NCBI GenBank assembly: GCA_963575745.1
Contig: CAUYUJ010000044.1
Location: 1-64,000 of the forward strand
DNA from: Prorocentrum cordatum
Lineage: Eukaryota
Reading direction: 5' to 3'
Length of the DNA: 64,000 nucleotides
In this document: in pieces, positions 661 through 64,000 of the stretch
Layout of the letters: each line of letters begins with the position of its first letter
How positions within the stretch are numbered: position 1 is the first letter of the stretch
The notes under the pieces: generated by a model
The model's database searches: none
What the model saw: the letters and a program-made list of their open reading frames with translations, nothing else
What the model was told of the DNA's origin: nothing
Program-made: the position numbers and the translations under genes

Positions 661-1610
661 CACCCCTGAAGATCAGGCGATCGCAAACATGGATCGATGG
701 GGGCGTGGACTAGCGACGGGCCCCGCCATGGGAAATCGCGGATGTCCGCCGCGAGCCAGGACCGGCCGCCCGTGGGGGAGATCCACGGATTTGGCGACCG
801 CGCGCCACATCCGTGGATCGCCAATCCATGTCTGCGCGCCCCCGAGAAGAGCGCCCCTGGCGAGGCGCAGATGCTGCAGCGCACCGCGCGGCACAGAAAA
901 ACGCCGGGAGAGCTGGCGAAGACGTCCGCAGAGCCTCTGCTGAAGCGTCCCGCGTGCAGCCCAGCGGAGGAGCCGAGGAGAGGAGGCGGAGGAGCAGAAG
1001 GAGGGAGGGAGGGAGGGAGGGATGGAGTGGAGGAAGAACGGAAGGGACTGAGACAGGAAGGGAGGCGCGCTGCTTTGGGAATGCATGTACGGAGGGAGAG
1101 AGAGAGGGCGTAGGATGTAGGGAGGGCGGGAGGGAGTGGAGGGAGAGAATCGGGCGGGAGGGAGGGAGGGAGGGAGGGAGGAGGGAGGGAGGAGAGGAGG
1201 AGGAGGAGGAGGGATGGATGGAGGGAGGGAGGGAGGGAGGGAGGGAGGAGGAGGAGGGAGGGAGGAGGAGGAGTAGGAGGAGGAGGAGGGAGGGAGGAGG
1301 AGGAGGAGGGGCGCTGGGAGGTTCGTGGAGAAGACGGTCGCGCACCGCGCCTTTGCCGGCGGTGGCGGCCAAGCGCCGGCGGCGGAGCAGCCGCCGCACG
1401 CCGGCGTGCAGGCGACAGCGGGCGAGGCCAGGCGCCCCCGTCTGCCCGGACTCTGCGCTTCCCTCGCGTCCCTCTCGCCGCCTCCCTGCCCTCGCGGGCG
1501 AAGCACGCAGCGTACGGTCGGGCCGAGGCACAAGTTCGAGGCCGGTCCGGGGAGGGTGCCCCAGTGTTCTGCGTGCCTGCTGGATGTTCTCGTGCGCTCT
1601 GGGGAAGGTA

Positions 1611-1788
1611 TCCCGGATTTCGTAATAAAAGGGAGGGGGTCTGGACCCTCCAAGACAAGTCATTTCAGACCTCCCCCGTGGGAGAACCCTCCAAAACATC
1701 GTCCCCAGACCCCCCAGGCCCTCCAAGATAGCCTGGAAGAGTCCCCCCCCGAAATGAGACCTCCCTCCCTTTATTACGAAATCTGGAG
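1611..1788. mobile_element. 178-bp MITE, family A (Tc1/mariner-type, TA TSD)
   Basis: TIRs tcccggatttcgtaataaaagggagg / cctccctttattacgaaatctggag, TA on both sides; inverted second copy at 28961-29138. Confidence 0.9.
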
Positions 1789-2320
1789 TATCCTTGGATG
1801 CTCGCGGAGGCATTCATATTCTTGCAGGATGTTATCATGTCCCATGTCCGGCCGTATCCGTCTCCGCGGCCTCGCGGGCTGGTCCCCTTGGCCGCGACCC
1901 TGCGGATTCCACAGGCGTTTTGCTCGCGGACGTCCCGCGCAGAACGTCCGTGCGACCGCGCATCCGCGGCGTCGCGCCCCAGAGTCTAGAAGCGCAAGGG
2001 CGCGCACACGAATAACGCTTCGCAGCTCGTGGTGCCCGCCGACCTCCTGGGGTGTCCTGGGTGTCCCTCCGCTCCCTCCCGGGCGCTTCCTCGCGGCCCG
2101 GCTCGGGTATAGCCAGGGCCCCGGATAGGGGGACCCAGGTAGTGAAAGGACCCCGAAGCCAAAACATATGCCGGCATCGCTCTTTTGGGCGAGCTGGGAG
2201 TTGGTCCTTGCGTCTTGCCTTAAGTCGGGCATGTCTCTCTACAGGAAAAATATTCCATTATCCAGGCGAAGGATCCAACCACATGCAGTTGTGAGTAACG
2301 CGTTGTGGCTGCCGCTCTCG

Positions 2321-4570
2321 GTGGAGCTCCCTGTGGGGCCACGAAACGCGTGAGGGACGTGACGTAGTGGGTGGGGGAGACGCATGCGGGCGGTGCCACT
2401 GGGGCCTTCGGTGGGGCTCCTCCCTATGGGCCACGAAACGCTGCACTGGGTGTGGCTGACGCATGCGGGCGGTGCCCCTCGCTGGAGCTCCCGATGAGGC
2501 CACGAAACGCTGTGCTGGTTGGGGGAAACGCATTGCGGGCGGTGCCGCTGGGGTCTTTCTGTGCAGCTCCTTACCGGGCCGCGAAACGTTGCACTGGGTG
2601 GTGGCCGACGCATGCGGGCTGTGCCACTGGGACCTTCGGTGGAGCTCCCTATGGGGCCACGAGAGGGGGGGACGCATGCGGGCGGTGCCACTGGGGCCTT
2701 CGGTGGAGCGCCCTATGGGCCCACGCAGCGCAGCACTATGTGGGCCACTGGAGCTCCCTATGGGGGCACGGAGCGCTGTACTGGGTGTGGCGGACGCATG
2801 CGGGCGGTGCCACTGGGGGCTGGTGGAGCTCCCAATTAATGGGGCCGCGAAATGCAGTACTCGGTGGTGCACGACGCATGCGGGCGGTGCCATTGAGGTC
2901 TTTCTGTGGAGCTCCCTATGGGGCCACGTAGCGCTGTACTGGGTGTGGCGGGCGCACGTGGCCACCCCCACTGGGGCCTTGGGTGGAGCTCCTATGGGGC
3001 CACGAAACGCTGTACTGGGTGTGGCGGACGCATGCGGCCACCCCCACTGGAACCTTGGGTGGAGCTCCCTATGGGGCCACGAAGCGCTGGGTGTGGCGGA
3101 CGCATGTGGCCACCCCCAGTGGGGCCTTAGGTGGAGCTCCCCATGGGGCCACGAAACACTGTACTGGGTTTGGCGGACGCATGTGGCCACCCCAACTGGG
3201 GCCTTGGGTGAAGCTCCCTATGGGGCCACGGCGCGCTGTACTCGGTTTGGCGGACGCATGTGGCCACCCCACTGGGGCCTTACGTGGAGCTCCACGAAAC
3301 GCTGTACTGGGTGTAGCGGACGCATGTGGCCACCCCCACTTGGGCCTTGGGTGGAGTTTCCTATGGGGCCACGGAGCGCTGTACTCTGTGTGGCGGACGC
3401 ATGGGGCCACCCCCAGTGGGGCCTTAGTTGGAGCTCCCTATGGGGCCACGAAGCGCTGTACTGGGTGTGGCGGACGCATGTGGCCACCCCCACTTGGGCC
3501 TTGGGTGGAGCTCCCTATGGGGCCACGAAGCGCTGTACGTGGTGTGGCGGACGCATGAAGCCACCCCAGCTGGGGTCTTGGGTGGCCTTCCTGTGGGGGC
3601 ACGAAACGCTGTATTGGGAGTGGCGGACTCATGAAAGCCACCCCCGCTGGGGCCTCAGGTGGAGCTTCCTATGGGGCCACGAAGCGCTGTACTGGGTGTG
3701 GCGGACGCATGAGGCCACCCCACTGGGGCCTTGAGTGGAGCTCCTATGGGGCCACGAAGCGCTGTACTGGGTGTGGCGGACGCATGTGACCACCCCCACT
3801 GGGGCCTTGGGTGGAGCTCCCTATGGGGCCACGGAGCGCTGTCTTGGGTGTGGCGGACGCATGTGGCCCCCCCCAGTGGGGCTTTAGGTGGAGCTCCCCA
3901 TGGGGCCACGGAGCGCTGTACTGGGTGTGGCGGACGCATGTGGCCACCCCAGCTGGGGCCTTGGATGAAGCTCCCTATGGGGCCACGTAGCGCTGTACTG
4001 GGTGTGGCGGGCGCACGTGGCCACCCCCACTGGGGCCTTAGAGGTGGAGCTCCCCATGGGGCCACGGAGCGCTGTACTGGGTGTGGCGGACGCATGTGGC
4101 CACCCCCGCTTGGGCCTTAGGTGGAGCTCCTTGTGGGGCCACGAAGCATTGCACTGGGTGTGGCGGACGCATATGGCCACGCCTTGGTTGTGGCGGACGC
4201 ATGCGGCCACCCCCACTGGGGCCTTACGTGGAGCTCCCCATGGGGCCACGAAGCGCTGTACTGGGTGTGGCTGACGCATGTGGCCACCACCACTGGGGCC
4301 TTGGGTGGAGTTCCCTTGTGGGGGCACGACACGCTGTATTGGGTGTGGCGGACGCATGTGGCCACCCCCATTTGGGGTTTTGGGTGGAGCTCCCTATGGG
4401 GCCACGAAGCGCTGTGCTGGGTGTGGCGGACGCATGTGGCTACCCCCGCTGGGGCCTCACGTGGAGCTCCCTGTGGGGGCACGAAACGCTGTACTAGGTG
4501 TGGCGGACGCATGTGGCCACCCCCATTTGAGGTTTTGGATGGAGATCCCTATGGGGCCACGAAGCGCTGT
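2321..4570. repeat. 77-bp tandem satellite, about 29 copies
   Basis: Unit GGAGCTCCCTATGGGGCCACGAAGCGCTGTACTGGGTGTGGCGGACGCATGTGGCCACCCCCACTGGGGCCTTGGGT; diverged copies also at ~8315-8540. Confidence 0.95.
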
Positions 4571-4587
4571 TTTGTGTGTGATGGTTG

Positions 4588-5365
<778 letters not shown>

Positions 5366-7279
5366 GCCTGGGACAAATAGTTTCAAACATAAGTCTGGGG
5401 ACGATCTTCCGGTTTTTGTTTGGACTGTTTTTGAGTATGTTTTGGACTACTCTTGTTTTTCGCTCACAATTCGCCTGTATGGGGGACATGCCCGACGGAA
5501 CTCCTGCCTCCGTCCCCCACGGCGCCCCGTGCCCGGGCGGGCTCGGCGCGCCCCAGGCGCGCGGAGGCCTGGCTCTCTGCGCCTCCCTCCTGCCCACTGC
5601 CGCCCCGAGGAGGAGGAGGAGGAGGGGGAGGGGGAGGGGGGAGGGGGGAGGAGGAGGAGGAGGAGGAGGAGGAGGAGGAGGAGGAGGAGGAGGAGGAGGA
5701 GGAGGAGGAGGAGGAGAGGAGGAGGGAGGAGGAGGAGGAGGAGGAGGAGGAGGAGGAGAGGAGGAGGAGGAGAGGAGGGAGGAGGAGGAGGAGGAGGAGG
5801 AGGAGTGCGGGCAAGCCACACCGCAGCGACGGAGCCACGGAGCGACGGAGCGGCGACCGGCGGCCGACGACGCATCGGCGGCTGGCGGTCGGCGATCGCC
5901 TCCCGGGCTGGCGGCCGGAGGCCCCGAGGGCCTTCGGGGGCCTCCGGCAGTGGAGGCGAGGCCGCTGCGGTCAGCTCTGCCCGCTGCCGCCCCGCAGCCA
6001 TGTCCAGCGCGTCTGGGGTCGGGGGAGAAAAAGATACGGATACGTGTTGTCCCCCTTCGTTTTCGGCCTTTCCCGGCCCTCCTGGGGAATCCTCGTTGTC
6101 ACCGCTGGATTCGCTTCGAAATTCTGGTCAGAACGCACCCCAAGAGAGGTCCGGGGACAACACGTATCCGTATCTTTCCGTCCCCCAATGGGCCAATGGG
6201 GCTTTCTGGGAAGGGGCGCCGCAAGGCCGAGGCGCACTGGGCACTGATGAAACTCGAGCCTTTGCGGGCCAGATCTCAATCCATCCAGTGCCTCTCATGT
6301 TTCTGGGGAAGGGAACCCGAAACTCCAAGACGCACTGGATGTGGACAGAGACATTGCCCGCACAGAGTCTCGGGCGTCCCTCCCGCCCTATCGCCTCGCT
6401 GCCTGCCTGTGTCTCTCCACGGGCCTTTCGATTACTCGCTTCTCCGAGGAGGGAGAAGGTACCCATATCGCTATCCTTCCCTCGCTGCCCTCTTTTTTTG
6501 GCCTCCTGGGAGGCCCTCGCCGCCACCGCTGGATTCGTCTCGACATCATGGTCAGAGCGCACCACAGGAGAGGTCCAGGGAGTAGCCGTATCTGTACCTT
6601 CTTGTTTCCTCACACTCCGCCGGACTATCACGTATATTTGGCGATACGTGTGTGTACGTATATATATATATATATATATGTTGGTATGCCCGTGGCGAGC
6701 GAGACGGAGGAGGTGGAGGAGGAGGAAGAGGAGGAGTTGACGATTAGGATGAGGCCTCTCGATGTCTTCTTGGGGCATTATTTGGGCCAAACCGGGTCGT
6801 GGTCAAGACGCCTCTCTGTGATCATTCTTGGGGTCTTTGGGGAGGCCTCTCGGCGGCCTCTTGGCGGTATTTCTGGGATGAGCTAGCGCAGCTTCGTGGC
6901 TATGCCGCAGTTCGACGATGACGAGGTTCCGCCCCGATCCCTCCCCTGCCCCTCCCACTCTCCCTTCCGCCTGCCCCTTGAAGAAGGAAAAGCTGCACGA
7001 GCATTTCGAGAATGTATTTTGGTGCGGCCTTCTCTTACTATATCCGCCCCCCTGGAAACCCCTCCCGTCCCCTTCTTCCTCCTCTTCCTTCTCCTCCTCC
7101 TTCTCCTTCTTCTCCTCGTCCTCCTCCTCCTCCTCCTCGTCCTCATTCCTCCTCCTCCTCCTCCTTCTCCTCCTCCTGCTCCTTCTCCTCTTCCTGCTCT
7201 TTTGCCTCCTTGCGCCGCCCGCTGCGGGCCCGCTCGCTGTCCGAGCGCGTGCTCTGCGAGGCTGCGCGTCGCAGAATCC

Positions 7280-25040: not shown

Positions 25041-25599
25041 CACGTGGCGGCCGCGGACCTGATGCGGCGCGTGCTCGACGAGATGGTCCAGGCTTCCCGA
25101 GAACTCTGCGATTCGATCGTCGAGGAGAGGGCGGTCGCCTCGGAGGGGGCGCCCGCAGCTGGGCACGGCCGCGGGGGCTGCGGACGACGCGTGCGAATTG
25201 GGCCGCGGTGGCAGCCCCGCCCAGCGCTTCTCGGACGACGTCGCGCGGGTGGAGGTGGGCGTGGCTGCGTCGGCCGGCGGGGTCTCGTCCGACCCTTCGG
25301 GGTTTGGGCCTAATGGCGGGGGCCTATGGCGTGCCTGCGGGGCTGTCTTAAACTGCCGCCCTCCAGCGGGCGCCGCCGCGGAAGCGCTCCTCTGTGCGCC
25401 CTTGGACCCCCCCCCTTCCGCCGCGGCGGCGGGGGCGTCCAGTGCGGGAGGGGCGCGCCCGACAGAGGGCCCTTTGGAGGGCGGGCAGGGCTTCGAAGCC
25501 GCGCCCTAGCTGCCTCGCGCGCGGGCGCGGCGCGGCATGGACGGAGGTGGCGGTGCCAAAATGGAAGGGGCGAGTTGCGGCGTCCGCCAGGATCCCACC

Positions 25600-34569: not shown

Positions 34570-36319
34570 TCATTGTTCGGGTCGGGCGGGTGGTAATGGG
34601 GGGCCCTAAATGGAGCCCTTTGGGGTCCTTTTTTGGCCAGTGCTCGCTCCACAAGGACGGAACCCTAAAGGCCCCCTTTAGGATCCTTTTCTTCACCCCC
34701 CCATTTAGGTCAGCCCTCCAATACCTCCCGCCCGACGGGTTGCAGATCATGGGGTCCTGGTATACCCTCGTAATTCCGCGTTCGGCGGGCACCCGTGTCG
34801 AGTCTGGCAGTCGATGAGATAGCGCCGACTCGCGTCGATCTGGCATCGATGAAGCGCCGATTAGCGTCGATGGGCGCCGAGTCGCCAGAGCCAACAAGAT
34901 CTGATGTGAGGCTGGCACGAGTCGCCACCGAAGGGGAGGGGGGAGACAGAGAGGACGGCAGAGGGTGGAGGGAGCCGTCCCCGCCCGTGGCCCCTCGCCC
35001 CCCTCCCCTCCCTGCCCGCCGCCCCGCACCCACCCTCATGCCGCGCCCCCCGCCTCCCGTCCCTCGCCCCCCCCCTGCCCTGCCCGCCCCTCCCCCCTCC
35101 CCTGGTGGTCCCTGGGGTCCTCTTGGGCCGCCTAATTAGGAGCGTCGGAGCGAGCGAACGGCGAGACCGCCGGCCCCTGCCAGAAACCTGGCGGGACCCT
35201 GTGAGTTGTGCCTCTTGAGAACCTCTTGGGAGCCCCTCTTCCTCCTCCTCCTCCTCCTCCTCCTCCTCCTCCTCCTCCTCCTCCTCCTCCTCCTCCCCTG
35301 TCCCAGCCGCTTCCGCCCTCCTCCTCCTCCTCCCCTGTCCCAGCCGCTCCCGCCCCGTCGGACCTCGCCCGGCGACTCTTCTTCGGGGCCTTCGGCCGGC
35401 CCCCTCGCTGCGCCCGCGGCGGCCTGCCTCCCCGAGGGAGTTTGTTTTGCGAGGGCTCGACGCCCACCCCGTGGCACGCGGCCCCTGGCTCGTGCCACGC
35501 GGGAGCGGCGAGGGGCAGGAGTTGCCGGGGAGAGGAGGGGGGGGGGGAGCCCCCCTGGGGCCGTCCCTGGGGGCCTTCTCGGCGCCGTGCGTCGGGAGGG
35601 CAGGCCCTGATCGCGGGGGGCCCCCGGCTCTGGACACACGGCGGGGTGGGCTTCCCCCTCCCTTCCCCCCCCCTCCCGTTCCCCCCCCCGCCCCCCTCCC
35701 CTCCCCCTCCCGTTCCCCCCGCCCCCCCCCTCCCCCCCCTCCCCGTTCCCCCCCCCCCCCCTCCCCCCCCCTCCCCCCCTCCCTCCCCCCTCCCCTCCCC
35801 CCCCTCCCCCCCCCGCCCCTCCCCCCCCCCCGGTCTGGCTGCGGCCGCCCTCCCGCCGATGCAGGGCCCTGGCCGCCACGCGGGCCTCTGGCCAGGAGCC
35901 GCCGCCCGCCGCCACGGCCCTCCGAGCCCTCCTCCCCTCCTCCTCTCCTCCTCCTCCTCCTCCTCCTCCTCCTCCTCCTCCTCCTCCTCCTCCTCCTCCT
36001 CCTCCTCCTCCTCCTCCTCCTCCTCCTCCTCCTCCTCCTCCTCCTCCTCCTCCCCTCCTCCTCCTCCTCCTCCTCCTCCTCCCCTCCTCCTCCTCCTCCT
36101 CCTCCTCCTCCTCCCTCCTCCTCCTCCTCCTCCTCCTCCTCCTCCTCCTCCTCCTCCTCCTCCTACCTCCTCCTCCTCCTCCTCCTCCTCCTCCTCCTCC
36201 TCCTCCTCCTCCTCCCCTCCTCCTCCTCCTCCTCCTCCCTCCTCCTCCCGCGGCAGGGGCGGGGGGGCCGGGGACGAGCACGCGCTCGGCCACTCGCTGG
36301 GGGGGGTAGGGGGCCGCAT

Positions 36320-51901: not shown

Positions 51902-53083
51902 ATGAAGGTCATGTATGCATGTTGCTTGACCGTTGTTCTGGTCGGAATCCACCCTGGCGCTGCGCTCGTGCTAGGAGGCGAGAAACCGGTGGCGCAGCTG
52001 ACGAAGTCCAGAGAGGGTGTCAGTGACAATTCGTCTGTGGCAACTTGGTACTCGTACAGAAAATGCCAAGGTACTTCACTATCGTGCAATTTGGATTCCA
52101 CATGGCCAAGCTGGTCAGGGTGCCCAGGTATCAGTCCCTGGTCAAATCGTTGCCACCAGGCCACCCTCGCCATCGCCCAGTCTATATGCAGTGCAAATGC
52201 GAATTGCATGGGCATAACGCGCGACGGGGCAGGATACGAGCCTAGGACAGGTCCTGGACCCTACTACCATACGGCAGCGCTCGAAATGTGGATCAAATAC
52301 ACCCCCGCCCCGACGCCCTACCCGACGCCAGACCCGACGCCCTATCCGACGCCCTACCCGACGCCGTACCCGACGCCCGCCCCGACGCCGTACCCGACGC
52401 CCTACCCGACGCCCTACCCGACGCCCAACCCGACGCCCAACCCAACGCCCAACCCGACGCCCTACCCAACGCCCTACCCGACGGCATACCCGACGGCCTT
52501 TCCGACGTCCTTCCCCACGTTCAGCCCGACGCCGAGCCCGACATTTCTTCAGGGCTGGCCGACGCCTCACCCGACATTTCTTTCTGGAGCTCCCATGGCG
52601 GGCGGAGCCGGCGGTGTGGCTGCCACTGGCGATCCCCACCTGCAAAATGTCTTTGGTCAGCGATTTGATTTGATGAAGCCGGGCAAGTATCTTCTGGTAA
52701 ACATCCCTCGTGGAAGGCAGACACGGGTATTGCTTCGCGTTGAGGCGGATGCGCGCCAATTGGCTGGACCGTGTGCGGATATGTATTTCGAGGAGTTGAA
52801 TGTTACAGGGGCTTGGGCAGAGGCAGAACACGCTGGAGGGTATCACTACGTTGCGTCGCAACCTATTGTCGGGACTCAAGGATGGGTTGCCTTCGGTAAG
52901 GTTGAGCTGAAGGTTGTTCATGGACGCACGCAAAGTGGGCTCCCATACCTGAACTTCTACGTCAAGCACTTAGGGCGAACCGGTTATGCAGTCGGAGGCC
53001 TGCTAGGAGAAGACGATCACGGAGACGTAACCATTCCTGAGGCGGGGTGTAAAGGGCATGTGTCCCTTTCGGAATCCAAGTAG
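51902..53083 (+). CDS. Secreted/cell-surface protein, 393 aa: signal peptide, Cys-rich domain, (PTPY/PTPN) stalk, GDPH vWD-like domain; intronless
   Basis: Intact ORF; hydrophobic N-terminus; paired cysteines; 12-bp PT repeats at 52300-52575; [17 protein letters not shown]...[10 protein letters not shown]-terminal domain. Confidence 0.9.
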
Positions 53084-53690: not shown

Positions 53691-54107
<417 letters not shown>

Positions 54108-54143
54108 TTACTACTACTACTACTACTACTACTGCTGCTGCTG

Positions 54144-54182
<39 letters not shown>

Positions 54183-55484
54183 CGACCGGCCTTTTCGATT
54201 CTTGCAGCTTCTTACCTAACAGCGAAGACTGATAGGTTTCTAGTGGTGTCAAAAGAGAGCATCTGATGACTCAGAAGGGAGGTCTGGGCGGCATCCGGAC
54301 AGCGAGGGCCAGGCTCAGGGCCGGGCTCGTTTTAAGCAAACAGTCACACACTTCGTGCTCGTCGACTTCCCAGAACTCCATTCCCGGGCCACATTTTGAA
54401 TGCCCGGAGCCAACTTTGCGTCGTCTGCGGCCGGTGTTGGGCCAGGTCCGGGTCTGTCGGACGCCTCCACGGCTTGTGAAGGCCCAGTAGCACGACCACA
54501 AGATTGCCTCCACACGGCCCAGACAGCTGAATATGGCCCTAAGACAAGCCCAAGATACCCCCAAGAGCCTAAGGCTTCCCACGGGGCCCCAGGAGACTAA
54601 CATCCTTCAAACACCCAGAGATATCCGTAGGTGTTTGAGGAACTCCCCTTTTGGTTTTCTATCGACCTCCAACGTTTGCGGATGGTTGCCCAGGGAAGAA
54701 CATTGGAATCCAGATGCTCAATTCCTAAACTCCAGAGTTTGGAAAATCCCCTCTTCCGATTTCACTGGAATTTGGAGGGGAGAACCCCTAAACTTTGGAG
54801 TTTAGGGTTCTAAGTTTCTGTCGGCCCCTCAGGAAGCTCTTAGTGGCCCCTCAGGACGTTCTTAGTGGCCCCCAGGAGGTTCTTGGTGCCCCCGCAAGGA
54901 GGTTCTTGGTGGCCCCTCTGGAGGCTCTTGGTGGCCCCGCAGGAGGCTCTTGGTGCCCCCGCAGGAGGTTCTTGGTGCCCCCGCAGGAGGCTCTTGGTGG
55001 CCCCGCATGGAGGTTCTCGGTGGCCCCGCAGGAGGCCCAGAGTCCTGGCGGCCCCCTGGTCCTTGGTGATGGTGACGATGACGATGATGTTGAGGATGAG
55101 GGGGGTCAAAATGAGAATGGGAACGATGACGATGACGATGTGTTTGGGGGCGGAAAAGAGGGGGGTGATGACTAGGGGGGGTGGATATCATGGCGGGGGC
55201 CATGATATTTCTCGGATTTCATGGCGCCTCTTCTTATTTCATTACGTCCCTGGCCCCCCCGCTGGGCCGCCCACATGCCGCTGGTCACGATTTGCACCCC
55301 CCCCTCTTGGACACCCCCCTCTTGGCCGCTCCCGATGTGTATCATGTCGATGACCTTGCTGATACCGGTGCTGATTTTGATGGGCACTGCGATGACGACG
55401 ACGACGACGATTGGGACGATGAGGGTAGCGGCGAGGACAGTACGGATGAGCATCATGCCTGCGACGACGATGACGATGCTGGTC

Positions 55485-55544
<60 letters not shown>

Positions 55545-55850
55545 TTGGTGATGATGCTGCTGATGATGCTGGTGATGATGTTGATGATGATGATGATGAT
55601 GATGATGATGACGTTGTGGCCTTTCATGCTGTTTGGTATGATATTGTGGTGACGATGAGGATGGGCAGGATGACGCTGATGATGACAATGATATTGATGA
55701 CGATGGAGGGGGATCATGACACTGATGATGATGCTGACCATGACGATGCTGTCGACAGCGATTGATGATGATGATGATGATGATGATGATCATCATCATG
55801 ATGATGATGACGATGATGACGATGATGACGATGATGATGATGATGATGAC

Positions 55851-55897
<47 letters not shown>

Positions 55898-55898
55898 C

Positions 55899-55977
<79 letters not shown>

Positions 55978-55982
<5 letters not shown>

Positions 55983-56073
55983 CGTTTCTTTTGAATATGA
56001 ATGCCTTTAGAGGGGAAGGAAGAGGCCGAATGCAGAATGCGTTGTGTCCTTTCAATATTTCGGCTCTCGAGCT
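55978..56073 (+). repeat. Split direct repeat A1
   Basis: tttcttttgaa...gaatgcctttagaggggaagg...gaatgcgttgtgtcctttcaata...cggctctcgagct is repeated at 61314-61411. Confidence 0.95.
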
Positions 56074-56479
56074 GGTGGGCCGCGGCGTGGCCGCGGCGCA
56101 TGGCCGGGGCCTTCCTGGGGCTTCCCGCGGGTTGGGCAGGGCTCATCGACCGCGCTGGGGCGTCCCTGCGCTCCAGGCGTGGGTCGCGCGCTGCCCTGCC
56201 CGGCAGTGGAGCTCCCGCCGTGCCCAGCGTGCCCAGGGTGCAGCGGCCCATCCTGTCCGCCCTGCCCTGGAGCCACGGTGGGCGCGACCACGGGCACCGT
56301 CGCCCTCGCCTGTGGGACGGCCGCGCTGGCTGGCGCGTCGCTCGGGGCCCTCGGCACGTTCACGGCGCTCCGGCTCCGGGCGCCGCTCTGGGGTGCGGCG
56401 GAGGGCCGCGGCCGGCCTCCGACGGTCGCCAGCGCGGCCAGGTCGCCACCGCCGTTCGCCGCGCTCGCCGGGGGACCTC

Positions 56480-57151
56480 ATGGCGGAGGCGTGGGCGTGG
56501 GTCCTGTACAACGTGGTCGGCGCGCCGCTGTTCCACCAGAGGAGGGTGGCGGGCCAGCTGGCACTCACGAGTGACGTCGTCATCGTGACCCCGGACGACA
56601 TGGTCTACGCCGAGACTTTGCTGGCGGCGGGGCCCGACGTCTCGGCGGTGAGGTTCTCGGCCGCGAGGTGGCCGCCGCCGCCGGGGACCGCGGCGTGGTG
56701 CGTGGCGTGGTTGCTGAGGGATGGCGGGCCCATCCAACGCCGCGAGAGCTGGAAGTCCCGCAAGCGGCTCAGCTCATCGGACTGGGGCGTCTCAGAGCAC
56801 CACGCGCTCTCCACCGTGCTGGAGGACCTCGCCACGCATGACGCGGTCGATGTGACGAACCTCCTCGGCGTGGAGCGGATGCTGAGGAATATGCAGCTGA
56901 TCGAGCATTTCTGGGGCGAGAAGCAGCGAGGGCAGGATGCTGGACAACTGAAGTTGCCGGTGGAAGCGGTCTCCGCCTTCGTGGGCGGCGCGGGTCTGTC
57001 GAGCCGCCCGAGCAGCCTGGTGCGCCCCGCCCTGCTGGGCGTCGTCGGGAAGGAGCTCGAGCGCATCAGTCAGATCAAGAAGAACGCCCGCGAGCTGCGG
57101 GAGGAGGCGAAGGCCGCCGCTGGGCCGAAAGCCAGCGGAGCCAAGGCATGA
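56480..57151 (+). pseudogene. gag-like ORF1 of element 1 (probably internally deleted)
   Basis: MAEAWAWV...SEHHALSTVLEDLATHDAVDVTNLLGVERMLRNMQLIEH...KNARELREE, directly upstream of pol. Confidence 0.6.
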
Positions 57152-57158
57152 CTCTCTC

Positions 57159-59430
57159 ATGCCCGGGGGGCCCAGTGGCCCAGCTTCCCCAGGCGCCGCG
57201 GCATCAGGGCCCGTCTCGGCGACAACCTGTGGCGCTGAGGGTGTACATCGCAAATTCGACGGCTCGGGTGCAGAGCGGCAGCGAGATCTCTTTCCGCTGC
57301 CAGTGCCCGGCGCCGCCGACCCTGGCGGGCTGGCTGCTGGCGCCTGTTCTCGAGCCGCGCGGCGGCGCGCTCGGCGCGCAGCGTCCGCGCCCTGGCTCGC
57401 GCGGCAGGCGGTCGAGGCGCTCAATGGCCTCAGCGGCGCTGAGGCGCAGGGTGGCCCACTGCCGCGGGCTGGCGCGACGCTCGCGCAGCAGCAGTGCCTG
57501 ACGCGGATCGCGGATTCCGTCGCCCAGCTGGGTCCCCCGCCAGGCGACCTACAGCCTTTGGCAGCCCTGCAGGAGCTCCAGGCTGCTCTGTCCTACGATG
57601 GCTCGCTATCGACGAGGGCAGAGGCGATGGACGTCTCCCGGCTCTCGCCGCCTCCTCCAGGTAACCGCCCTGTGGCTTTTGAGCGGCTTCTGGGCGCCGA
57701 GGTATTCGACTCCGTCCATCGTGGTATCTCGTGCAAGGTCTGGCCAAAGACCGAAGTTTTGCAGCAGAAGCAGCGCGTTGGCTTCAAGAAGCCTTACTCG
57801 GACACCAGCCTTCGAGACCCTCGCCGCTATGCAGCGCTGGCGAGGCGTCTCCATGAGGCCGGGGTGGTCGACCTCGTCAGCGACGCCGCCCTGGTGGTCG
57901 ACGAGGTTGGCCTTTTCAGCGTGGCCAAGAAGAGCGGGAAGCAGCGGCTGGTCGTCGACGCCCGCCCGGCCAACTTCTGGTTCGGCGACCCCGAGGGCGT
58001 CCGCCTGGCCACCGGCGCTGCGCTGGCAGCGATCGAGTTGCCGGACGGCGCCAGCTTGTGGACCGCCTCGGCGGACATCGCGGACGCTTCCTGCAACATG
58101 GAGCTGCCGGGCGCCTGGAGGCCGTGCTTCGCGCTCCCTCCGCTGGACTCCTGGAGGCTTGGGCGTGAGACCGTTCCCGGGCAGCCTCGCCCGCAGCGGC
58201 TCTGGCCGCGGCTCGCGGCGCTGCCCATGGGCTGGCCCCGCGCGCTGGCCATCCGCCGGCGGGTGTCGGAGGCGGCCGCCGACCGCGCAGAGCTGTCAGT
58301 GCTGTCCAGGATCGCGGACCGGCGCGCCGGCCCTAGTCTGGGCGCCGGCGCGCACCTCGTGTACGTCGACAACTTCGCGCCCCTCGCCCTCGACGGGGAC
58401 ACCGCCGACCGCCTGAAGGATGACATGGTCGCCGAGCTGCGCGGCGAGGGCCTCCCGGTGCATGAGGAGGAGCTTGCCTCGCTCCACGCGCAGGTGCTAG
58501 GCCAGGTGATCGATGGCGCGCGGGGAGCAGTCACGCCTTCGCCTCGGAGAGCCTGGGGGATCATCCTGGCCACGCGCGCGCTCCTCGCGATGCCGAAGAT
58601 CTCGGCTCAGCATGTGCGCCAGGTCGTGGGGCACTACGCTTTCCTCTTCATGGTGAGGCGCCCGCTGCTGGCTGTTTTCTCGGCCGTGTACCGCTTCATC
58701 GCGAAGGCCGGTGAGGCGCCCTGGCCCAGGTGGCCCAGCGTGCGCCGAGAGTTGGTGTGGGCCATGGGATTTGCCCCGCTGGCGCGCGCCGACCACCGGG
58801 CCCGGTGGTTGGGCAGAGTTCTGTATACGGATGCCTCCGAGTGGGGCCGAGGGGTGTGCGAGCGTGAAATGAGCGGAGACGTGGTGGAGAGGATGGGTAG
58901 GATCCAGGAGCGCTGGCGCTTCCGAGACCCCGGTGCCAGGGCGCCGCGGGAGCAGCTCATCGAGCCCCTCGAGCCCCTGGCGGCCCACGTCTACTCCGAG
59001 CCGTCCTCGGGAGGTCACGTCAGCAGCGCGCCGTCGGACATCCAGGAGCCCATCGCCCCCATGGACAAAGGGGGCCCCCGCGTGGAGCCCCGGGAGACCG
59101 ACTTCGAGCCTCGGGAAGTCCATCGCATCTCTGGGGGCTGGGTCGTCATCTCGAGCGGGGCCTGGGAGAGAGGAGCGCGTCGCAGCCTTGGACGGGGGGG
59201 GGGCCCTAATCCACGCCTTGAAGCACGTCCTCCGGGACGCCGGGCAGCGCGGCCATCTTTTCAGACAGTCTCGTCGCCGTCCTGGCTCTGACCAAGGGCC
59301 GCTCCTCGCGGCCGAGGATGGCGCGCGTTTGCCGCCAGTGGGCCGCCCTCGTGGTGGCCGGGGGCGTCGCCGCGGCGCTGCGGTGGATCCCGTCGGAGGC
59401 GAACCTGGCGGCTGCCCTCCCGCCGGGCGC
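57159..59430 (+). pseudogene. Reverse transcriptase-RNase H of element 1
   Basis: LFSVAKKSGKQRLVVDARPAN, ADIADA, LPMGW, YVDN, YTDASEWG, and RWIPSEAN after frameshifts. Confidence 0.9.
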
Positions 59431-59639
59431 TGAGGATCGGCGCGCGGCCGCGCTGGGGTGCTGTCGCCAGTCTGGCCGCCGCGCGGGGGGCTGGACAGGC
59501 AGGCGCTGGTGCCGGCGCCTCTCGTGACGATGGCCCCGCGCCAGGCGGCGGCGGGGGGCTCGCGCCGGGCGGCGGCCTCACAGCGAGGCTGGCGCCAGGC
59601 GAGATGCAGCCACCTGTCGAGGCCGGCGGAGGCGGGCGC

Positions 59640-60360
59640 CATGCGTGCGGGGGAGACCGCGGCGCAAGCGCCCAAGGCAGCCTCCCCTCGCTTCTCGGCG
59701 GGCCATGTCCTGAGGGCCCTCTCGATCTCGGCGGTCCCGAGGGCCAAGTGCACGCGCCTCTGGGCCGATGTCGTGGCCTGGATGACGTCCGTGACCGTGG
59801 CCCTCCGCGCCGAGACCGCGGACGACCTGCCGGAGCACTGGGTGGGCCAGCAGCGCGCCGAAGAGGGGGGCCCCGAGCGCATGGCCTACGGGCTGGTTGC
59901 GCTGAAGTTCATGATGCCGCAGTTCGGGCGCGGGGGCCAGGGGTTGCCGAAGACGCAGGTCTACAACGTGGTGATCTCAGTCGACCTGCCGTTCTACAGC
60001 TCCCTGCCCGGCGCTCTGAGCTGGCTCAAGGCGGGGGCCCGCCCGAGCGAGCCGAGCGCCCCGTTCACCCTCGTGCGCGTCAGCCCCTTGTTCAAGGAGG
60101 CGGCGGAGGGCGTGAAGCTGGCGTCGCTCGCCCCGCGGCTGTGCCAGCTGCGGCGCTCGGGCCCGTCGGTGGAGTTGGCCCTGCGGCTGCGGGCCCTGGC
60201 CAGCGTCAAGCTCCGCGGCCGTCGGCGGGCCGACGCGTCGGTTGCGCGCCTCCCCATGCCAGGCCGCGTCGGCGCGCAGCCGCAGAGGCTGGCGCCCAAG
60301 GTGCGGCGCGCGGCCCCGCTGGCCCCGGCGCGGCTGGCCTCTCTCCTCGGCTGGCGCTGA
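59640..60360 (+). pseudogene. Tyrosine recombinase of element 1, decayed
   Basis: LCQLRRSGPS (Y.LRH.G.S box) and KLRGRRRADASVARL (RGRW...SV.RY box); the central Arg box appears deleted. Confidence 0.7.
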
Positions 60361-60389
60361 GGAGGCTGCTGGGCCCCCGCCGCCGCCGT

Positions 60390-61137
60390 TTCCAGGCGCC
60401 CCCGATCTTCGCGGGGGTTTTCTCCGGCGAGGGCGCGCTGGCGGCAGCTCTGCGGAGCGAGGGCGCCCTGGTCATCGAGTGGGGCATCGCCTGGGGAGCG
60501 ACTGGGGCCTCGCCAACCTGAAGTGTCCCGGGTGTTGCGGGGCTGGCTGGGCGCCGGCCTGATCTGCGGCCTGCGTTTCGGTGCGCCCTGCGAGACGTGG
60601 TCCAGAGTCCGGGGCGCCGGGCCGCCGCGCGTGCCAGGCGAGCCCCCGTCCTGGCCAAGCCGCCTCCGCTCCGACTCAGAGCTCTGGGGGCTCGCAGCCG
60701 TGGCGCACCCAGCGGACCGAGCTCAGATTATGACCGCCAATAAGTTAGTGAGGTGCTGTGAAAGTGTGTGGGTCAGTTGCGATAGGCTGTGGCTCATTCC
60801 GTCTCTGCAGTGCTTCCGAAAACAACCGCATTTTTCCTGGGCGGTCACGCATTTTTGCCAAGACGGGGCCGCGTGGAAAAAAAAACCGACAAGTCTCCTT
60901 GGCTATCGTGTGGATGTCTCAGCCTTCGCTCGTTTGCGCGCTGGCTCTCGTTCGCGTTGTAGTAGGACTGGTCAGCTCCATCAGATTCCAAGAGGAAAAG
61001 CTCCAGGAAGGCCTCTGTGGACTTTAGTTGCGCATGCCTACCCCAGGGCACTTGCGAGACGATGGGCTCGCGCGCTCATCTGCGCCAGGCTCCACTCCGA
61101 GGCTCTGTCAATCGCGCCGATCTGGCTAGGCCGCTAA
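60390..61137 (+). pseudogene. C5-cytosine DNA methyltransferase-like ORF, frameshifted near 60515
   Basis: Motif I-like FAGVFSGEGAL, motif IV-like GAPCETWS (catalytic PC), FCQDG..WKKKPT, terminal AYPRAL; ENP/ENV motif missing. Confidence 0.7.
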
Positions 61138-61178
61138 CGCAGAAGAGTAGCTAGCCCTCCGGATATTTCGGGATGTTT

Positions 61179-61588
61179 TGGCCGTGGGGCCGTGCGCCAG
61201 AGCAGAACTTCGGTTGATGAGTATTCTCTCTTGCTCGCCCCAGAGTCGTTCACGGTGCTGCCTCTTGCTGTCTAACAGAATCCGACCTGGCCTCGGAAAT
61301 AACATCGTCGGGCATGGGCTTTTCTTTTGAAGACGAATGCCTTTAGAGGGGAAGGGGGAGGCCGAATACAGAATGCGTTGTGTCCTTTCAATAGCCTTCG
61401 GCTCTCGAGCTCCCACCCTCCCGCCCTGTTGCTGCTGTAAGGCTTCGCCGTGGCCGTGGGGCCGTGCGGCAGAGCAAGAATTCGGTTGATGAGTATTCTC
61501 TCTTGCCGGCCCCAGAGTCGTTCACGGTGCTGCCTCTTGCTGTCTAACAGAATCCGACTTGGTCTCGGAAATAACATCGTCGGGCATG
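61179..61588 (+). repeat. 3' split repeats B1-A2-B2
   Basis: tggccgtggggccgtgcg...ggaaataacatcgtcgggcatg at 61179-61316 and 61451-61588, bracketing A2. Confidence 0.95.
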
Positions 61589-63119
61589 ATGATGGTGATG
61601 ATGATGATGATGATGGCGATGAGGATGATGGCAATGACGACGACAATTTTGATGACAATGATGGGTTTGCTAATGATGCTGACGATGACGGGTACGGCTC
61701 CTATGTTTATGATGATGATGGTGCCGATGACGACGATGAGGCAGATGGTGACTATGGCAATGACCCCGATGACGACGAGCATGGCGATGATGTTGATGAT
61801 GGTGAAGATGTTTTTGATGATGAGGATGCTGACGACGATGACGATGAGGATGATACTGATGATGGCGATGGCAACGGCGACGATGGCGACGAACATGATG
61901 ATGCTGCTGCTGATGAGGATGGCGCGACAAATATGGCCGATAATGACGGTGCTTGTGTTGCTGACGACGTGGATGATGACGTTTAGGACGATGATGCTCA
62001 TGCTAACAATGTTGGTGGTGATGGTTGAGGTGGTGATGATGATGCTTACGATGCCAATGATGATGATGCTGATGATGCTGATGATGCTGATGATGCTGAT
62101 GGTGGTGATGGCGATGTTGATGATGATAATGACGATGCTGATGATTATGATGATGGGGATGCTGATGATGATGATGATGATGATGATGATGCTGGTGATC
62201 GCGGTGGTGATCACGATGGTAGCGAAGATGACGATGATCACGCTGACGAGACGATGACGATGGCTATAATGATGCTCGCGATGCTGATGGTGGTGATGAT
62301 GATGGTGATTGATTACTGCACCACTATGGCGAGGACGAGGAGGAGGACGACGACGACTTCGACGACGACGATGACGATGACGTTGACGGTGATGAGGATC
62401 CTCATGATGATGCTGATCATGATGGTGAAAATGACATGGATATCGTGGATAATGACGAAACTGATGATGATGACGACGAGGACGACATTGATGCCGATTA
62501 TGATTACGATGGCCCTGCCGATGCTGATAATGATGATGATGATGATGCTGATGATGGGGATGATGATGGTGATGATGCTGATGATCATGATCATGGTGGT
62601 GGTTGTGATGATGATGATGCTGATGATGATGATGGCGATTATGATGCTGATGCTGCTGATGATGATGATTATGACGATGATCGTGATGTTGGCGATACCG
62701 ATGGCCATCATTGGAGGAGTGCGCGCGCGGGAGTTCGCGCTGAAAAGGGAGGAGGGGGGTAGGAGCTTGTGCAGAGTAGGGAGGCGGCAGGAAGAGAAGG
62801 AGGAGGGGGACAAGGATGAGGAGAAGGAGTAGGATAGGGAGGAGTAGGAGGAGAAAAAGCATGAGAAGGAAGGAGGAGAAGACAGGGATGAGGAGGAGGG
62901 AGAAAGAGGAGGAGGACGAGGACGAGGACGAGAATCATGGGAAACGGTCGCGCGCAAGGGGTGGCGTCGCGGAGACTTGGAATTCCGGATTACTCGTTAG
63001 GGGTCCTGCCCGAACGCTCCGATTTCCGAAGTTACAGGTTCCCGCCCTCCAGATTCCTTGGTCTTTTCCGGGCAGTCGTCTCCTCCTCCTCTGCTCCTGT
63101 CTTTTCCTCCAGTCCTCTC

Positions 63120-63400
63120 GGGTTTACCCAAAACGGGGTCCAGTGACAAGGGGGTGGTGCAGTAGATTTGGTGCAATAGATTTGTGGGGTTGCAATATAT
63201 TTGGGGCGTGCAGTACATGTCGGGGTGCAAATGTATTGCTGCATTTTCATGTGTTATGCCATTTGCTGCAATTTCGGGCGTGCCAATACATCATTTGCTA
63301 TACAATGCAATGCAATTCTCCGGCGCAATACATATGCAAAACAATTGCACCAAGTCTATTGCACTACCCCTTTTCAGTTGAACCCCGTTTTGGGTTGCCC
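63120..63400. mobile_element. ~280-bp MITE with ~55-bp TIRs
   Basis: acccaaaacggggtccagtga..ggggtggtgcagtagatttggtgcaat / attgcaccaagtctattgcactacccc..tcagttgaaccccgttttgggt. Confidence 0.85.
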
Positions 63401-64000
63401 AAATCCTCTCCTCTCCTCTCATTTTCTCCTCTCCTCTCCTACTTCCATTTCTTCCTCTCTCCTCCTCTTCCTTCCTCTCCTCCTCTCCCCTCCTCCTCCC
63501 CGCCTGCTCCTCACCTCCTTTCTTCTCCTCCTCTCCTCTCCTCTCTTCTCCTCTCTTCATCTCCTCTCCTCATCTGCTCCCCTCTCCTCCTGTCCTCTCA
63601 TCCTGTCCTCAGCTCTCCTCTCATTTTCTCCTCTCCTCTTTTCTGCCCTCTCTTATTGTCCTCTCATGTTCTCCTCTCCTCTCCTCTCCCTTCCTTTCCT
63701 TTTCTCCTCCCCTCCTCTCGTCTCCTCCTCTCCTCTCCTCCCCTCGTCTCGTCCTCTCCTCTCCTTCCCTTCTCTCCTCTCCCCCCCCACGAGGAGGAGG
63801 AGGAGGAGGAGGAGGAGGAGGAGGAGGAGGAGGAGGAGGAGGAGGAGGAGGAGGAGGAGGAGGGGACCGAACCTGAAATCCGGAGCTGAAACCCTAAACT
63901 CTGGAGCTTCGGGTTTCCGACCTCTGGAGTCCCGGGTCTACGGCATCCTGGGAGCTTCTGGGGGCACTCTTGGGGCCTCCCGGAAGCTTCCTGGGAGCCT

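What the first reader, a model, noticed from the sequence alone, without database searches (positions are those of the whole stretch)
55978..61588. Complete split-direct-repeat YR retrotransposon carrying its own cytosine methyltransferase-like gene
Seen: A1-[gag, RT-RNase H, YR, MTase-like]-B1-A2-B2, with all boundaries resolvable. Known: split direct repeats mark PAT/Ngaro/VIPER-type YR elements, and retrotransposon-borne cytosine methyltransferases have been reported in dinoflagellates. Inference: the MTase sits last, overlapping or abutting YR and inside the repeats, so it is integral cargo. It could methylate the circular cDNA intermediate to mimic host DNA. This copy is dead (frameshifts, deletions) but defines a family structure.
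Basis: partly seen in the sequence, partly recalled or inferred. Interest (0 to 1): 0.85.

Follow-up and report, generated by a model that had tools for sequence, protein, structure and literature searches.

The report
Dead dinoflagellate retrotransposon with cryptic cytosine-methylase domain
This is a decayed copy of a tyrosine-recombinase retrotransposon from a dinoflagellate genome whose last coding block is a very divergent cytosine-methyltransferase-like domain, a kind of cargo already reported for such elements in coral symbionts but here of a lineage that standard domain searches miss.

Summary
At 55978-61588 there is an A1-[coding]-B1-A2-B2 element: A 96-98 nt at about 90% identity, B 138 nt at 94%. 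It sits in a (GAT)n tract, and an ATG is shared by the A start, the B end and the target.

The coding order is ORF1 (gag by position only), RT, RNase H, tyrosine recombinase (YR), then an MTase-like domain. The copy is dead. The YR has lost about 90 aa and its Trp and Tyr. The MTase-like part has an in-frame stop, at least 3 frameshifts and no ENP block.

The nearest proteins are named Prorocentrum cordatum. Two of them also read YR straight into the MTase-like domain.

An intact relative of the domain models with high confidence and matches C5 DNA methyltransferases first. Its FxG, PC and ENP motifs are 91-99% conserved in 177 hits. Pfam barely detects it.

A YR element of this layout carrying a C5 MTase is published for dinoflagellates (SymbioDIRS-Dnmt3, PMC5890265). 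I rate this a new variant of a known kind, of moderate interest. The enzymatic activity is inferred, not shown.

The parts
55480..55977 (.). left flank: (GAT/ATG)n microsatellite, the insertion target
55978..56073 (+). repeat A1 (starts with ATG)
   Evidence: 89.8% identical to A2 over 98 columns, E 4e-31
56153..57172 (+). ORF1, gag by position only (stop-to-stop ORF 55979-57151)
   Evidence: tblastn to the N-terminal parts of P0003, P0001 and P0007. No Pfam family. No informative Atlas hit.
57405..58800 (+). pol N-terminal region and reverse transcriptase, inside the open 779-aa frame 56952-59291
   Evidence: Family profile E 1.1e-19 and 5.4e-40. Model of 57639-59051 has pLDDT 83.8. Foldseek top hits are MMLV, HERV-K, CaMV, HIV-1 and Ty3 RT, E 3.7e-13 to 5e-9. 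YVDN motif in the translation.
58800..59415 (+). RNase H region, broken by frameshift(s); its C-terminal part reads in ORF 59222-59524
   Evidence: Family profile positions 740-793, E 1.9e-14. tblastn frame change. The RNase H fold was not tested on its own.
59449..60357 (+). tyrosine recombinase remnant: about 90 aa deleted near 59950, Trp to Arg, catalytic Tyr to Leu
   Evidence: YR profile E 5.8e-33, with profile positions 51-139 missing. P0006 residues 578-667 have no counterpart. Catalytic columns from A5.
60358..60360 (+). in-frame stop between the YR and the MTase-like domain
60393..60482 (+). MTase-like motif I (VFSGEGAL), in a different frame from the rest of the domain
60514..60615 (+). 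MTase-like motif IV (GAPCETWS, putative catalytic Cys)
   Evidence: profile positions 49-82, E 2.5e-4
60781..61077 (+). MTase-like C-terminal half (motif VIII-like and the C-terminal helix). The ENP block that should precede it is missing. The ORF stops at 61135-61137.
   Evidence: Profile positions 126-222, E 5.6e-10. No EN[PV] in any + frame of the element.
61179..61316 (+). repeat B1 (ends with ATG)
   Evidence: 94.2% identical to B2, E 1.3e-56
61314..61411 (+). repeat A2. The B1|A2 joint is the predicted circle junction.
61412..61450 (+). 39 nt between A2 and B2 with no repeat partner
61451..61588 (+). repeat B2 (ends with ATG), followed by the (GAT)n right flank

Best explanation
It is an old, inactivated copy of a DIRS-order (tyrosine-recombinase) retrotransposon with PAT/Ngaro/VIPER-type split direct repeats. 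The host is a dinoflagellate, and the nearest proteins are named Prorocentrum cordatum. Its family encodes ORF1, RT, RNase H, YR and, last, a compact (about 215 aa) and very divergent C5-cytosine-methyltransferase-fold domain.

How the family most likely works:
- Inferred from the published DIRS model: the RNA is reverse transcribed, and the A and B repeats allow a closed cDNA form whose B|A joint equals the internal B1|A2 joint.
- Inferred, but fitting what the sequence shows: the YR recombines a 3-bp core (here ATG) at that joint with an ATG in the target, without target-site duplication. The ATG sits at the A start, the B end and in the (GAT)n target.
- Inferred from the conserved SAM-binding and catalytic motifs, and by analogy with SymbioDIRS-Dnmt3: the MTase-like domain methylates cytosines of the element's own cDNA, so that it resembles the heavily CG-methylated host DNA.

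This copy can do none of it. The YR has lost its first Arg box, its Trp and its Tyr. The MTase-like part is frameshifted, interrupted by a stop, and lacks the ENP block.
For: Termini.

RT:
- The model of the window's own ORF segment (pLDDT 83.8) matches retroviral, Ty3 and CaMV RTs. At least 500 Foldseek matches have E<=1e-3, and all 47 rows shown are RTs.

YR:
- Family alignment A5 keeps the Arg, His-x-x-Arg, Trp and Tyr columns.
- PF00589 matches 3 of 6 members, best E 1.8e-5.
- The profile hits Tre and Cre recombinases, E 0.0098-0.45.
- The window ORF matches the YR profile at E 5.8e-33.

MTase-like domain:
- The window's frames match the family profile at E 5.6e-10 and 2.5e-4.
- The model of an intact relative has pLDDT 81.6 and pTM 0.81.
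- Foldseek against PDB gives 103 matches with E<=1e-3, and all 40 rows shown are C5 MTases (DNMT1, 3A, 3B, 2, DIM2, MET1).
- VIA-align over 48,161 chains puts C5 MTases first: 3g7u Z 11.5 over 191 residues, DNMT3B 10.8, DNMT3A 10.7, M.HhaI 10.3.
- PF00145 matches 4 of 11 members, best E 0.0069.
- The profile aligns motifs I-IV with DNMT2 (4h0n), E 0.088.
- The top ESM Atlas cluster is auto-named a C5-MTase family, score 0.96.
- In 177 domain hits: F 126/139, G 135/139, P 165/169, C 165/169, E 163/168, N 162/168, P 166/168.

Integral cargo:
- Both P. cordatum proteins of 453 aa or more that match the window's 3' ORF carry the YR directly upstream (2 of 2).
- Of 22 metagenome loci, 15 have a YR next to the domain: 13 downstream and 2 upstream, the latter as in the window.

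Circle-like form: contigs L003 and L008 end in exact 77- and 99-nt self-overlaps.

Multi-copy family: 224 contigs of run X1 lie on the element at 85% to over 99% likeness.
Against: - No Pfam family matches any window ORF at E<=1. No relative reaches a Pfam gathering score.
- Fold matches for the MTase-like model are moderate (TM 0.36-0.48, rmsd 4-5 A). Generic Rossmann dehydrogenases score Z 8-10.2, though over fewer residues, about 155.
- The fold evidence comes from a distant relative (P0010 group), not from the window's broken copy.
- There is no recognisable target-recognition domain.
- Methylation of anything is untested.
- The element's CpG observed/expected ratio is 1.0, against 0.82 in the rest of the window. 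So there is no sign of deamination decay. PMC5890265 reports the same for SymbioDIRS-Dnmt.
- ORF1 has no detectable gag signature.
- The RNase H fold was not tested.
- No RT phylogeny with reference DIRS, Ngaro, PAT or VIPER elements was made.
Confidence: 0.8

Rival explanations
1. It is simply a member of the already described SymbioDIRS-Dnmt3 elements. On this view the domain is their Dnmt3-type DNMT, only more diverged, and nothing about it is new.
For: The host group and the layout A-coding-B-A-B are the same. A DNMT sits in the pol region. PMC5890265 reports two architectures with shuffled order of integrase and pol domains, as I see here: MT then YR in 13 loci, YR then MT in 2 loci and in the window. 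DNMT3A and DNMT3B are among the best fold matches.
Against: - SymbioDIRS-Dnmt3 was found with PF00145 and clusters inside eukaryotic Dnmt3.
- PF00145 matches none of 28 full-length or partial relatives at E<=0.01-1. It matches only 4 of 11 isolated domains, at E>=0.0069.
- The family profile hits no DNMT3A or DNMT3B chain in the PDB at E<=10. Its only DNMT hit is DNMT2.
- The three S. kawagutii gene models in the family carry no precomputed Pfam domain.
- I could not read the paper's main supplement. A direct comparison is therefore missing.
Confidence: 0.15
2. The domain is an active C5 methyltransferase, but its substrate is RNA rather than cDNA. The substrate could be the element's transcript or a tRNA, as with DNMT2.
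For: The only sequence-level PDB hit among DNMTs is DNMT2. The domain is compact and has no recognisable DNA target-recognition domain. There is no CpG depletion in the element. PMC5890265 raises RNA methylation for its LINE-borne DNMT.
Against: The DNMT2 hit is weak (E 0.088) and covers only motifs I-IV. DNA MTases (prophage 3g7u, DNMT3A/B, M.HhaI) score as high as or higher than Dnmt2 by fold. The published DIRS-borne DNMT methylated CG in DNA when expressed in yeast (passages).
Confidence: 0.2
3. The 3' ORF is not a methyltransferase module of the element. It is either a generic Rossmann-fold remnant or a fragment of another element nested here.
For: There is no Pfam hit on the window ORF. 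SDR-type Rossmann proteins reach Z 8-10.2. The window copy is too broken to judge on its own.
Against: - The motif order FxG, PC, ENP and a basic motif VIII-like block matches C5 MTases and is 91-99% conserved.
- C5 MTases align over 190-212 of 231 residues, against about 155 for SDRs.
- The domain lies inside the A/B repeats with no extra repeats around it.
- It is linked to RT-RNase H and YR in the 13 full-length proteins aligned in A3 and in 15 of 22 loci.
Confidence: 0.05

Closest known systems
SymbioDIRS-Dnmt3 (de Mendoza et al. 2018, PMC5890265; sections 6, 7, 15, passages of the discussion and the peer-review file read)
   Same: A dinoflagellate host and the A-coding-B-A-B layout. It has a divergent RT that Pfam aligns poorly, a tyrosine recombinase, and a C5-MTase-type domain in the coding region. 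There are two domain orders. The proposed role, methylating the cDNA so that it looks like host DNA, is the same.
   Different: The domain here is not detected by PF00145 at Pfam thresholds, and its profile does not hit DNMT3A or DNMT3B sequences. In the window's family it follows the YR at the 3' end instead of sharing the pol ORF with the RT. The nearest proteins are from Prorocentrum, not from Symbiodiniaceae.
[quoted passage not shown]
   Same: Split direct repeats A1...B1-A2-B2, with RT-RNase H plus YR. Integration is by recombination at a 3-bp junction sequence, without target-site duplication.
   Different: According to these papers PAT-like and DIRS1-like elements carry a methyltransferase domain, and PMC5890265 describes it as Dam-like (N6-adenine). 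Ngaro and VIPER carry none. Here the domain has a C5-cytosine MTase fold. Placement by RT phylogeny was not done.
C5 DNA methyltransferases (Pfam PF00145; DNMT1, DNMT2, DNMT3, M.HhaI, prophage MTase 3g7u)
   Same: The Rossmann-type MTase fold, with motif I (FxG), motif IV (PC), motif VI (ENV, here ENP), a basic motif VIII-like block and a C-terminal helix, in the same order.
   Different: It is only about 215 aa, with no recognisable target-recognition domain. Conserved Cys and His residues (C151, C177, H183, C215) lie where that domain would sit. It scores below the Pfam threshold. It is always found fused or adjacent to retroelement genes in the proteins and loci I examined.

Membership tests
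DIRS order (tyrosine-recombinase retrotransposons) | reverse transcriptase | tested here: met
   The model of window 57639-59051 has pLDDT 83.8. All 47 Foldseek rows shown are retroviral, Ty3 or CaMV RTs, E 3.7e-13 to 5e-9. RVT_1 scores below threshold in 7 of 8 relatives.
DIRS order (tyrosine-recombinase retrotransposons) | RNase H after the RT | tested here: inconclusive
   The window matches the relatives' RNase H region of the pol profile at E 1.9e-14. One relative has a weak hepadnaviral RNase H Pfam hit, E 0.0059. The fold was not tested, and the region is frameshifted in the window.
DIRS order (tyrosine-recombinase retrotransposons) | tyrosine recombinase instead of a DDE integrase | tested here: met
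   For the family: the Arg, His-x-x-Arg, Trp and Tyr columns are conserved; PF00589 matches 3 of 6 members, best E 1.8e-5, 25.1 bits against a cutoff of 27.1; the profile hits Tre and Cre in the PDB, E 0.0098-0.45. The window holds a homologous remnant (E 5.8e-33) without the catalytic residues.
PAT-like / Ngaro-like / VIPER-like (split-direct-repeat groups) | termini A1 ... B1-A2-B2 | tested here: met
PAT-like / Ngaro-like / VIPER-like (split-direct-repeat groups) | placement in an RT/RNase H phylogeny with reference elements | not tested
   None of the tools I used returned a reference DIRS, Ngaro, PAT or VIPER sequence.
PAT-like / DIRS1-like | Dam-like (N6-adenine) methyltransferase domain after the RNase H | tested here: not met
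   The domain after the RNase H in relatives (after the YR in the window) matches C5 MTases by fold. Pfam at E<=10 lists only PF00145 (4 of 11 members) and one unrelated family (1 of 11), and no adenine-MTase family.
C5 cytosine methyltransferase (PF00145) | Pfam gathering score | tested here: not met
   No hit on the window ORFs at E<=1. None of 20 relatives matches at E<=0.01. 4 of 11 isolated domains match, best E 0.0069.
C5 cytosine methyltransferase (PF00145) | motifs I (FxG), IV (PC) and VI (ENV-like), in order | tested here: met
   For the family: F 126/139, G 135/139, PC 165/169 each, E 163/168, N 162/168, P 166/168. The window copy keeps FSGEG and APCETW but has no ENP.
C5 cytosine methyltransferase (PF00145) | C5-MTase fold | tested here: met
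   The model has pLDDT 81.6. All 40 Foldseek rows shown are DNMTs, E from 9.5e-6. VIA-align Z is 11.5-10.3 for C5 MTases over 191-209 residues, ahead of Rossmann dehydrogenases. The model is of relative P0010, not of the window copy.
C5 cytosine methyltransferase (PF00145) | SAM-dependent cytosine methylation | not testable with these tools
   This needs an enzyme assay.
SymbioDIRS-Dnmt3 | the DNMT is detectable with PF00145 and belongs to the Dnmt3 clade | tested here: not met
   See for PF00145. The family profile hits no DNMT3A or DNMT3B chain at E<=10. The fold search ties DNMT3 with other C5 MTases. No published SymbioDIRS sequence was available for a direct comparison.
SymbioDIRS-Dnmt3 | A-coding-B-A-B element with RT, YR and a DNMT-type domain in a dinoflagellate | tested here: met

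The most novel reading that the evidence does not exclude
The MTase-like domain represents a large family of compact C5-methyltransferases that Pfam does not detect: 10,421 cluster representatives at E<=1e-3. On this reading it is a standard, selected module of dinoflagellate (and perhaps other marine protist) YR retrotransposons. It would play the part that the Dam-like MT plays in DIRS1 and PAT elements. If so, the 'DIRS elements lacking DNMTs' counted in PF00145-based surveys of Symbiodiniaceae may in fact carry a cryptic cytosine methylase. The published conclusion that a DNMT is dispensable for these elements would then need revisiting.
Probability: 0.35. Interest if true: 0.6.

Novelty: new variant of a known kind. 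Interest (0 to 1): 0.45.

Why it matters
Retrotransposons that bring their own DNA-modifying enzyme show how mobile elements adapt to a host's epigenetic landscape. Dinoflagellates, with nearly ubiquitous CG methylation, are the main example. This window shows that the association reaches beyond Symbiodiniaceae, because the nearest proteins are from Prorocentrum. It also shows that a second, much more divergent C5-MTase-like lineage is involved. That lineage is very abundant in public protein collections and goes unseen by the Pfam model used in earlier surveys. The family profile built here (A4) can be used directly to re-count MTase-bearing elements. The copy in the window is itself a fossil with no function.

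Tried and rejected
- Pfam on the six window ORFs: nothing at E<=1.
I used ORFs and family profiles instead.
- No whole genome is held for this window, so no genome-wide copy census or family consensus was possible.
- The full-length pol profile (A3) against PDB sequences found no RT or RNase H, only a weak DNMT2 hit. I used fold searches instead.
- ESM Atlas on ORF1 gave no informative cluster, so 'gag' stays positional.
- A search for split repeats in the longer relatives found none in L001, L011 and L013. L003 and L008 show only contig-end self-overlaps. L006 has an internal 66-nt pair that I did not interpret.
- L013 (6.3 kb) has the pol ORF but no YR hit.
- Sequencing runs: no RNA holder is listed, and only small shares are held (0.15 and 0.05). 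Laying the runs showed many diverged short contigs but no piece that spans the element.
- Earlier findings of this scan: nothing for this genome or this sequence.
- Literature: PMC5890265's main supplement (MOESM1) could not be read. The three S. kawagutii gene ids were not in the supplement files that are held. The main text of the P. cordatum genome paper has no occurrence of 'DIRS' or 'retrotransposon'. Searches found no description of this domain lineage.
- tblastn hits of P0001, P0006 and P0007 elsewhere in the window (1246-1566, 25206-25550, 35629-35917, 52311-52547) fall in Ala/Arg/Gly-rich segments. The family profiles did not reproduce them. I rejected them as compositional.
Full report
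OBSERVATION. A self-comparison of 54000-64000 and a blastn of the element against the whole window give two pairs of direct repeats. A1 (55978-56073) pairs with A2 (61314-61411): 98 columns, 89.8% identity, E 4e-31. B1 (61179-61316) pairs with B2 (61451-61588): 138 nt, 94.2%, E 1.3e-56. The order is A1-[5.1 kb]-B1-A2-B2. B1 and A2 overlap by ATG. The 39 nt at 61412-61450 have no partner. Both flanks are (GAT/ATG)n tracts. A starts with ATG and B ends with ATG, so the edges cannot be set closer than 3 nt and there is no target-site duplication. Nothing else in the window resembles the element. The element is 70% G+C against 59.5% for the first 55 kb of the window, and its CpG observed/expected ratio is 1.0 against 0.82.

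CODING CONTENT AND DAMAGE. No Pfam family matches the window's ORFs at E<=1. Homology to relatives maps the content:
- ORF1 lies at 56153-57172.
- A 779-aa open frame (56952-59291) holds a conserved pol N-terminal region and the RT (family profile E 1.1e-19 and 5.4e-40).
- The RNase H region is frameshifted. Its C-terminal part sits in ORF 59222-59524 (E 1.9e-14).
- A YR remnant lies at 59449-60357 (E 5.8e-33).
- After an in-frame stop at 60358-60360 comes the MTase-like domain.

The YR lacks the counterpart of P0006 residues 578-667, which include the first catalytic Arg box. At the conserved Trp and Tyr columns it reads Arg and Leu.

The MTase-like domain is split over frames. Motif I (VFSGEGAL) is at 60393-60482, a short piece sits in a third frame, and the rest is at 60514-61134. 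That rest includes GAPCETWS and the C-terminal half (E 5.6e-10). About 11 residues that should hold ENP are missing, and no EN[PV] occurs in any + frame of the element.

So the termini are complete, but the copy is dead. ORF1 has no recognisable gag feature.

RELATIVES. The closest proteins are 'unnamed protein product [Prorocentrum cordatum]'. P0001 is 83% identical over the RT region, and of the 12 hits 7 carry that name. Only two proteins of 453 aa or more match the window's 3' ORF, P0006 and P0179. Both read YR directly into the MTase-like N-terminal part.

P0001, on a different contig, shares the window's YR deletion and its Trp-to-Arg and Tyr-to-Leu changes. These defects therefore predate the split of the two copies.

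A more distant group is 23-30% identical to the window's RT segment. It includes three Symbiodinium kawagutii gene models and many metagenome proteins, and it has RT-RNase H-MTase-like in one protein of about 1,150 aa.

In 22 metagenome loci carrying the domain, 13 have a separate, often overlapping YR ORF of about 405 aa downstream. Two (L019, L020) have the YR upstream, as in the window. Seven have none, five of them contigs of 2.7 kb or less.

Contigs L003 and L008 end in exact 77- and 99-nt self-overlaps, that is, they assemble as circles of 6,371 and 6,692 nt. That is what collapsed A/B repeats of a multi-copy split-repeat element would give. It could equally be tandem or circular DNA.

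Run X1 holds 224 short contigs on the element, at 85% to over 99% likeness and covering all 30 bins. Two of them leave the B end at 61316 into a different GAT-rich flank. This suggests a multi-copy family and at least one other insertion in similar DNA.

WHAT THE 3' DOMAIN IS. A profile of 11 intact domains (A4) finds 10,421 cluster representatives at E<=1e-3, and 3,854 at E<=1e-10. Of 20 that I scanned with Pfam, none has PF00145. Scanned as isolated domains, 4 of 11 A4 members give weak PF00145 hits (best E 0.0069), and only one other family appears, once.

Against PDB sequences the profile aligns motif I to motif IV with DNMT2 (E 0.088) and hits no other DNMT.

An AlphaFold model of the P0010 domain (pLDDT 81.6, pTM 0.81) gives 103 Foldseek matches at E<=1e-3, and all 40 rows shown are C5 DNA methyltransferases. 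A Foldseek-independent scan of 48,161 chains ranks a prophage DNA MTase (Z 11.5), DNMT3B (10.8), DNMT3A (10.7), DIM2 (10.4) and M.HhaI (10.3) first, over 191-209 aligned residues. Rossmann dehydrogenases reach Z 8-10.2 over about 155 residues.

In 177 domain hits the SAM-loop F and G, the PC dipeptide and ENP are each 91-99% conserved, as are C151, K159, T161 and C177. I read this as a compact C5-MTase-fold enzyme under selection for catalysis. The activity itself is not shown.

RT AND YR. The window's own RT segment models at pLDDT 83.8 and matches MMLV, HERV-K, CaMV, HIV-1 and Ty3 RTs at E 3.7e-13 to 5e-9. The YR family matches PF00589 just below threshold in 3 of 6 members, and matches Tre and Cre recombinases.

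MECHANISM. By the published model for split-repeat YR elements, the repeats let reverse transcription produce a closed form. The YR then recombines a 3-bp junction with an identical target triplet, without duplication (PMC3266345 and PMC6681497, passages). The ATG shared by A start, B end, the B1|A2 joint and the (GAT)n target fits this. Because A1/A2 and B1/B2 should be near-identical at insertion (PMC6681497), their 6-10% divergence marks an old insertion. The role of the MTase-like domain, methylating the cDNA, is inferred by analogy with SymbioDIRS-Dnmt3.

COMPARISON WITH WHAT IS KNOWN. PMC5890265 describes SymbioDIRS-Dnmt3. These are A-coding-B-A-B elements of Symbiodinium with a divergent RT, a YR and a PF00145-detected, Dnmt3-clade DNMT. 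They come in two domain orders, are able to methylate CG in yeast, and are proposed to mask the cDNA as host DNA. A 2026 preprint lists the known TE-borne DNMTs and names no further dinoflagellate type.

The present domain differs in three ways. It escapes PF00145, its profile does not hit DNMT3A or DNMT3B sequences, and in the window's family it sits after the YR. I could not compare it directly with published SymbioDIRS sequences, because the supplement was unreadable. A 15% chance remains that it is the same lineage, more diverged.

By its termini the element belongs with the PAT/Ngaro/VIPER-type groups. It lacks the Dam-like MT of PAT and DIRS1 elements, and no RT phylogeny was made.

VERDICT. 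It is a new variant of a known kind. The useful by-product is a profile for an abundant C5-MTase-like retroelement domain that Pfam does not detect.

Noticed in passing
window 59449-60357, compared with protein P0001: P0001 comes from another contig and is 83-85% identical. It shares the window copy's ~90-aa YR deletion and its Trp-to-Arg and Tyr-to-Leu changes. A recombinase-dead variant was therefore copied further, either by mobilisation in trans or by segmental duplication.
   Followed up: partly
L003:1-77 / 6372-6448 and L008:1-99 / 6693-6791: Two metagenome contigs of related elements end in exact self-overlaps of 77 and 99 nt. They assemble as circles of 6,371 and 6,692 nt. Collapsed split repeats would be expected to give this, but tandem or extrachromosomal circular copies would give the same.
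   Followed up: no
L008:339-6458: The frame that ends in the tyrosine recombinase stays open for 2,040 codons across the whole pol ORF (1709-5215). This resembles the 'long ORF overlap' reported for DIRS1-like elements (PMC3266345).
   Followed up: no
window 55300-55977 and 61589-62700: Long (GAT/GAC)n-rich tracts lie on both sides of the element. They read as poly-Asp in one frame. In run X1, two contigs leave the B repeat end into a different GAT-rich flank, which hints at a target preference for ATG-containing microsatellites.
   Followed up: partly
window 54716-54809 and 63885-63915: Short CCCTAAA-containing inverted and direct repeats (for example GAACCCCTAAACTTTGGAGTTTAGGGTT) lie about 1.2 kb upstream and about 2.3 kb downstream of the element, 9,106 nt apart. 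Their meaning is unknown.
   Followed up: no
MTase-like family profile positions 151, 177, 183, 215: Conserved Cys and His residues (C151 165/167, C177 161/163, H183 109/160, C215 116/146) lie where C5 MTases have their target-recognition domain. They may form a small metal-binding substitute.
   Followed up: no
window 54809-55058: A tandem array of a ~22-nt unit (about 10 copies, GGAGG(T/C)TCTTGGTG(G/C)CCCC...) lies just upstream of the microsatellite flank.
   Followed up: no
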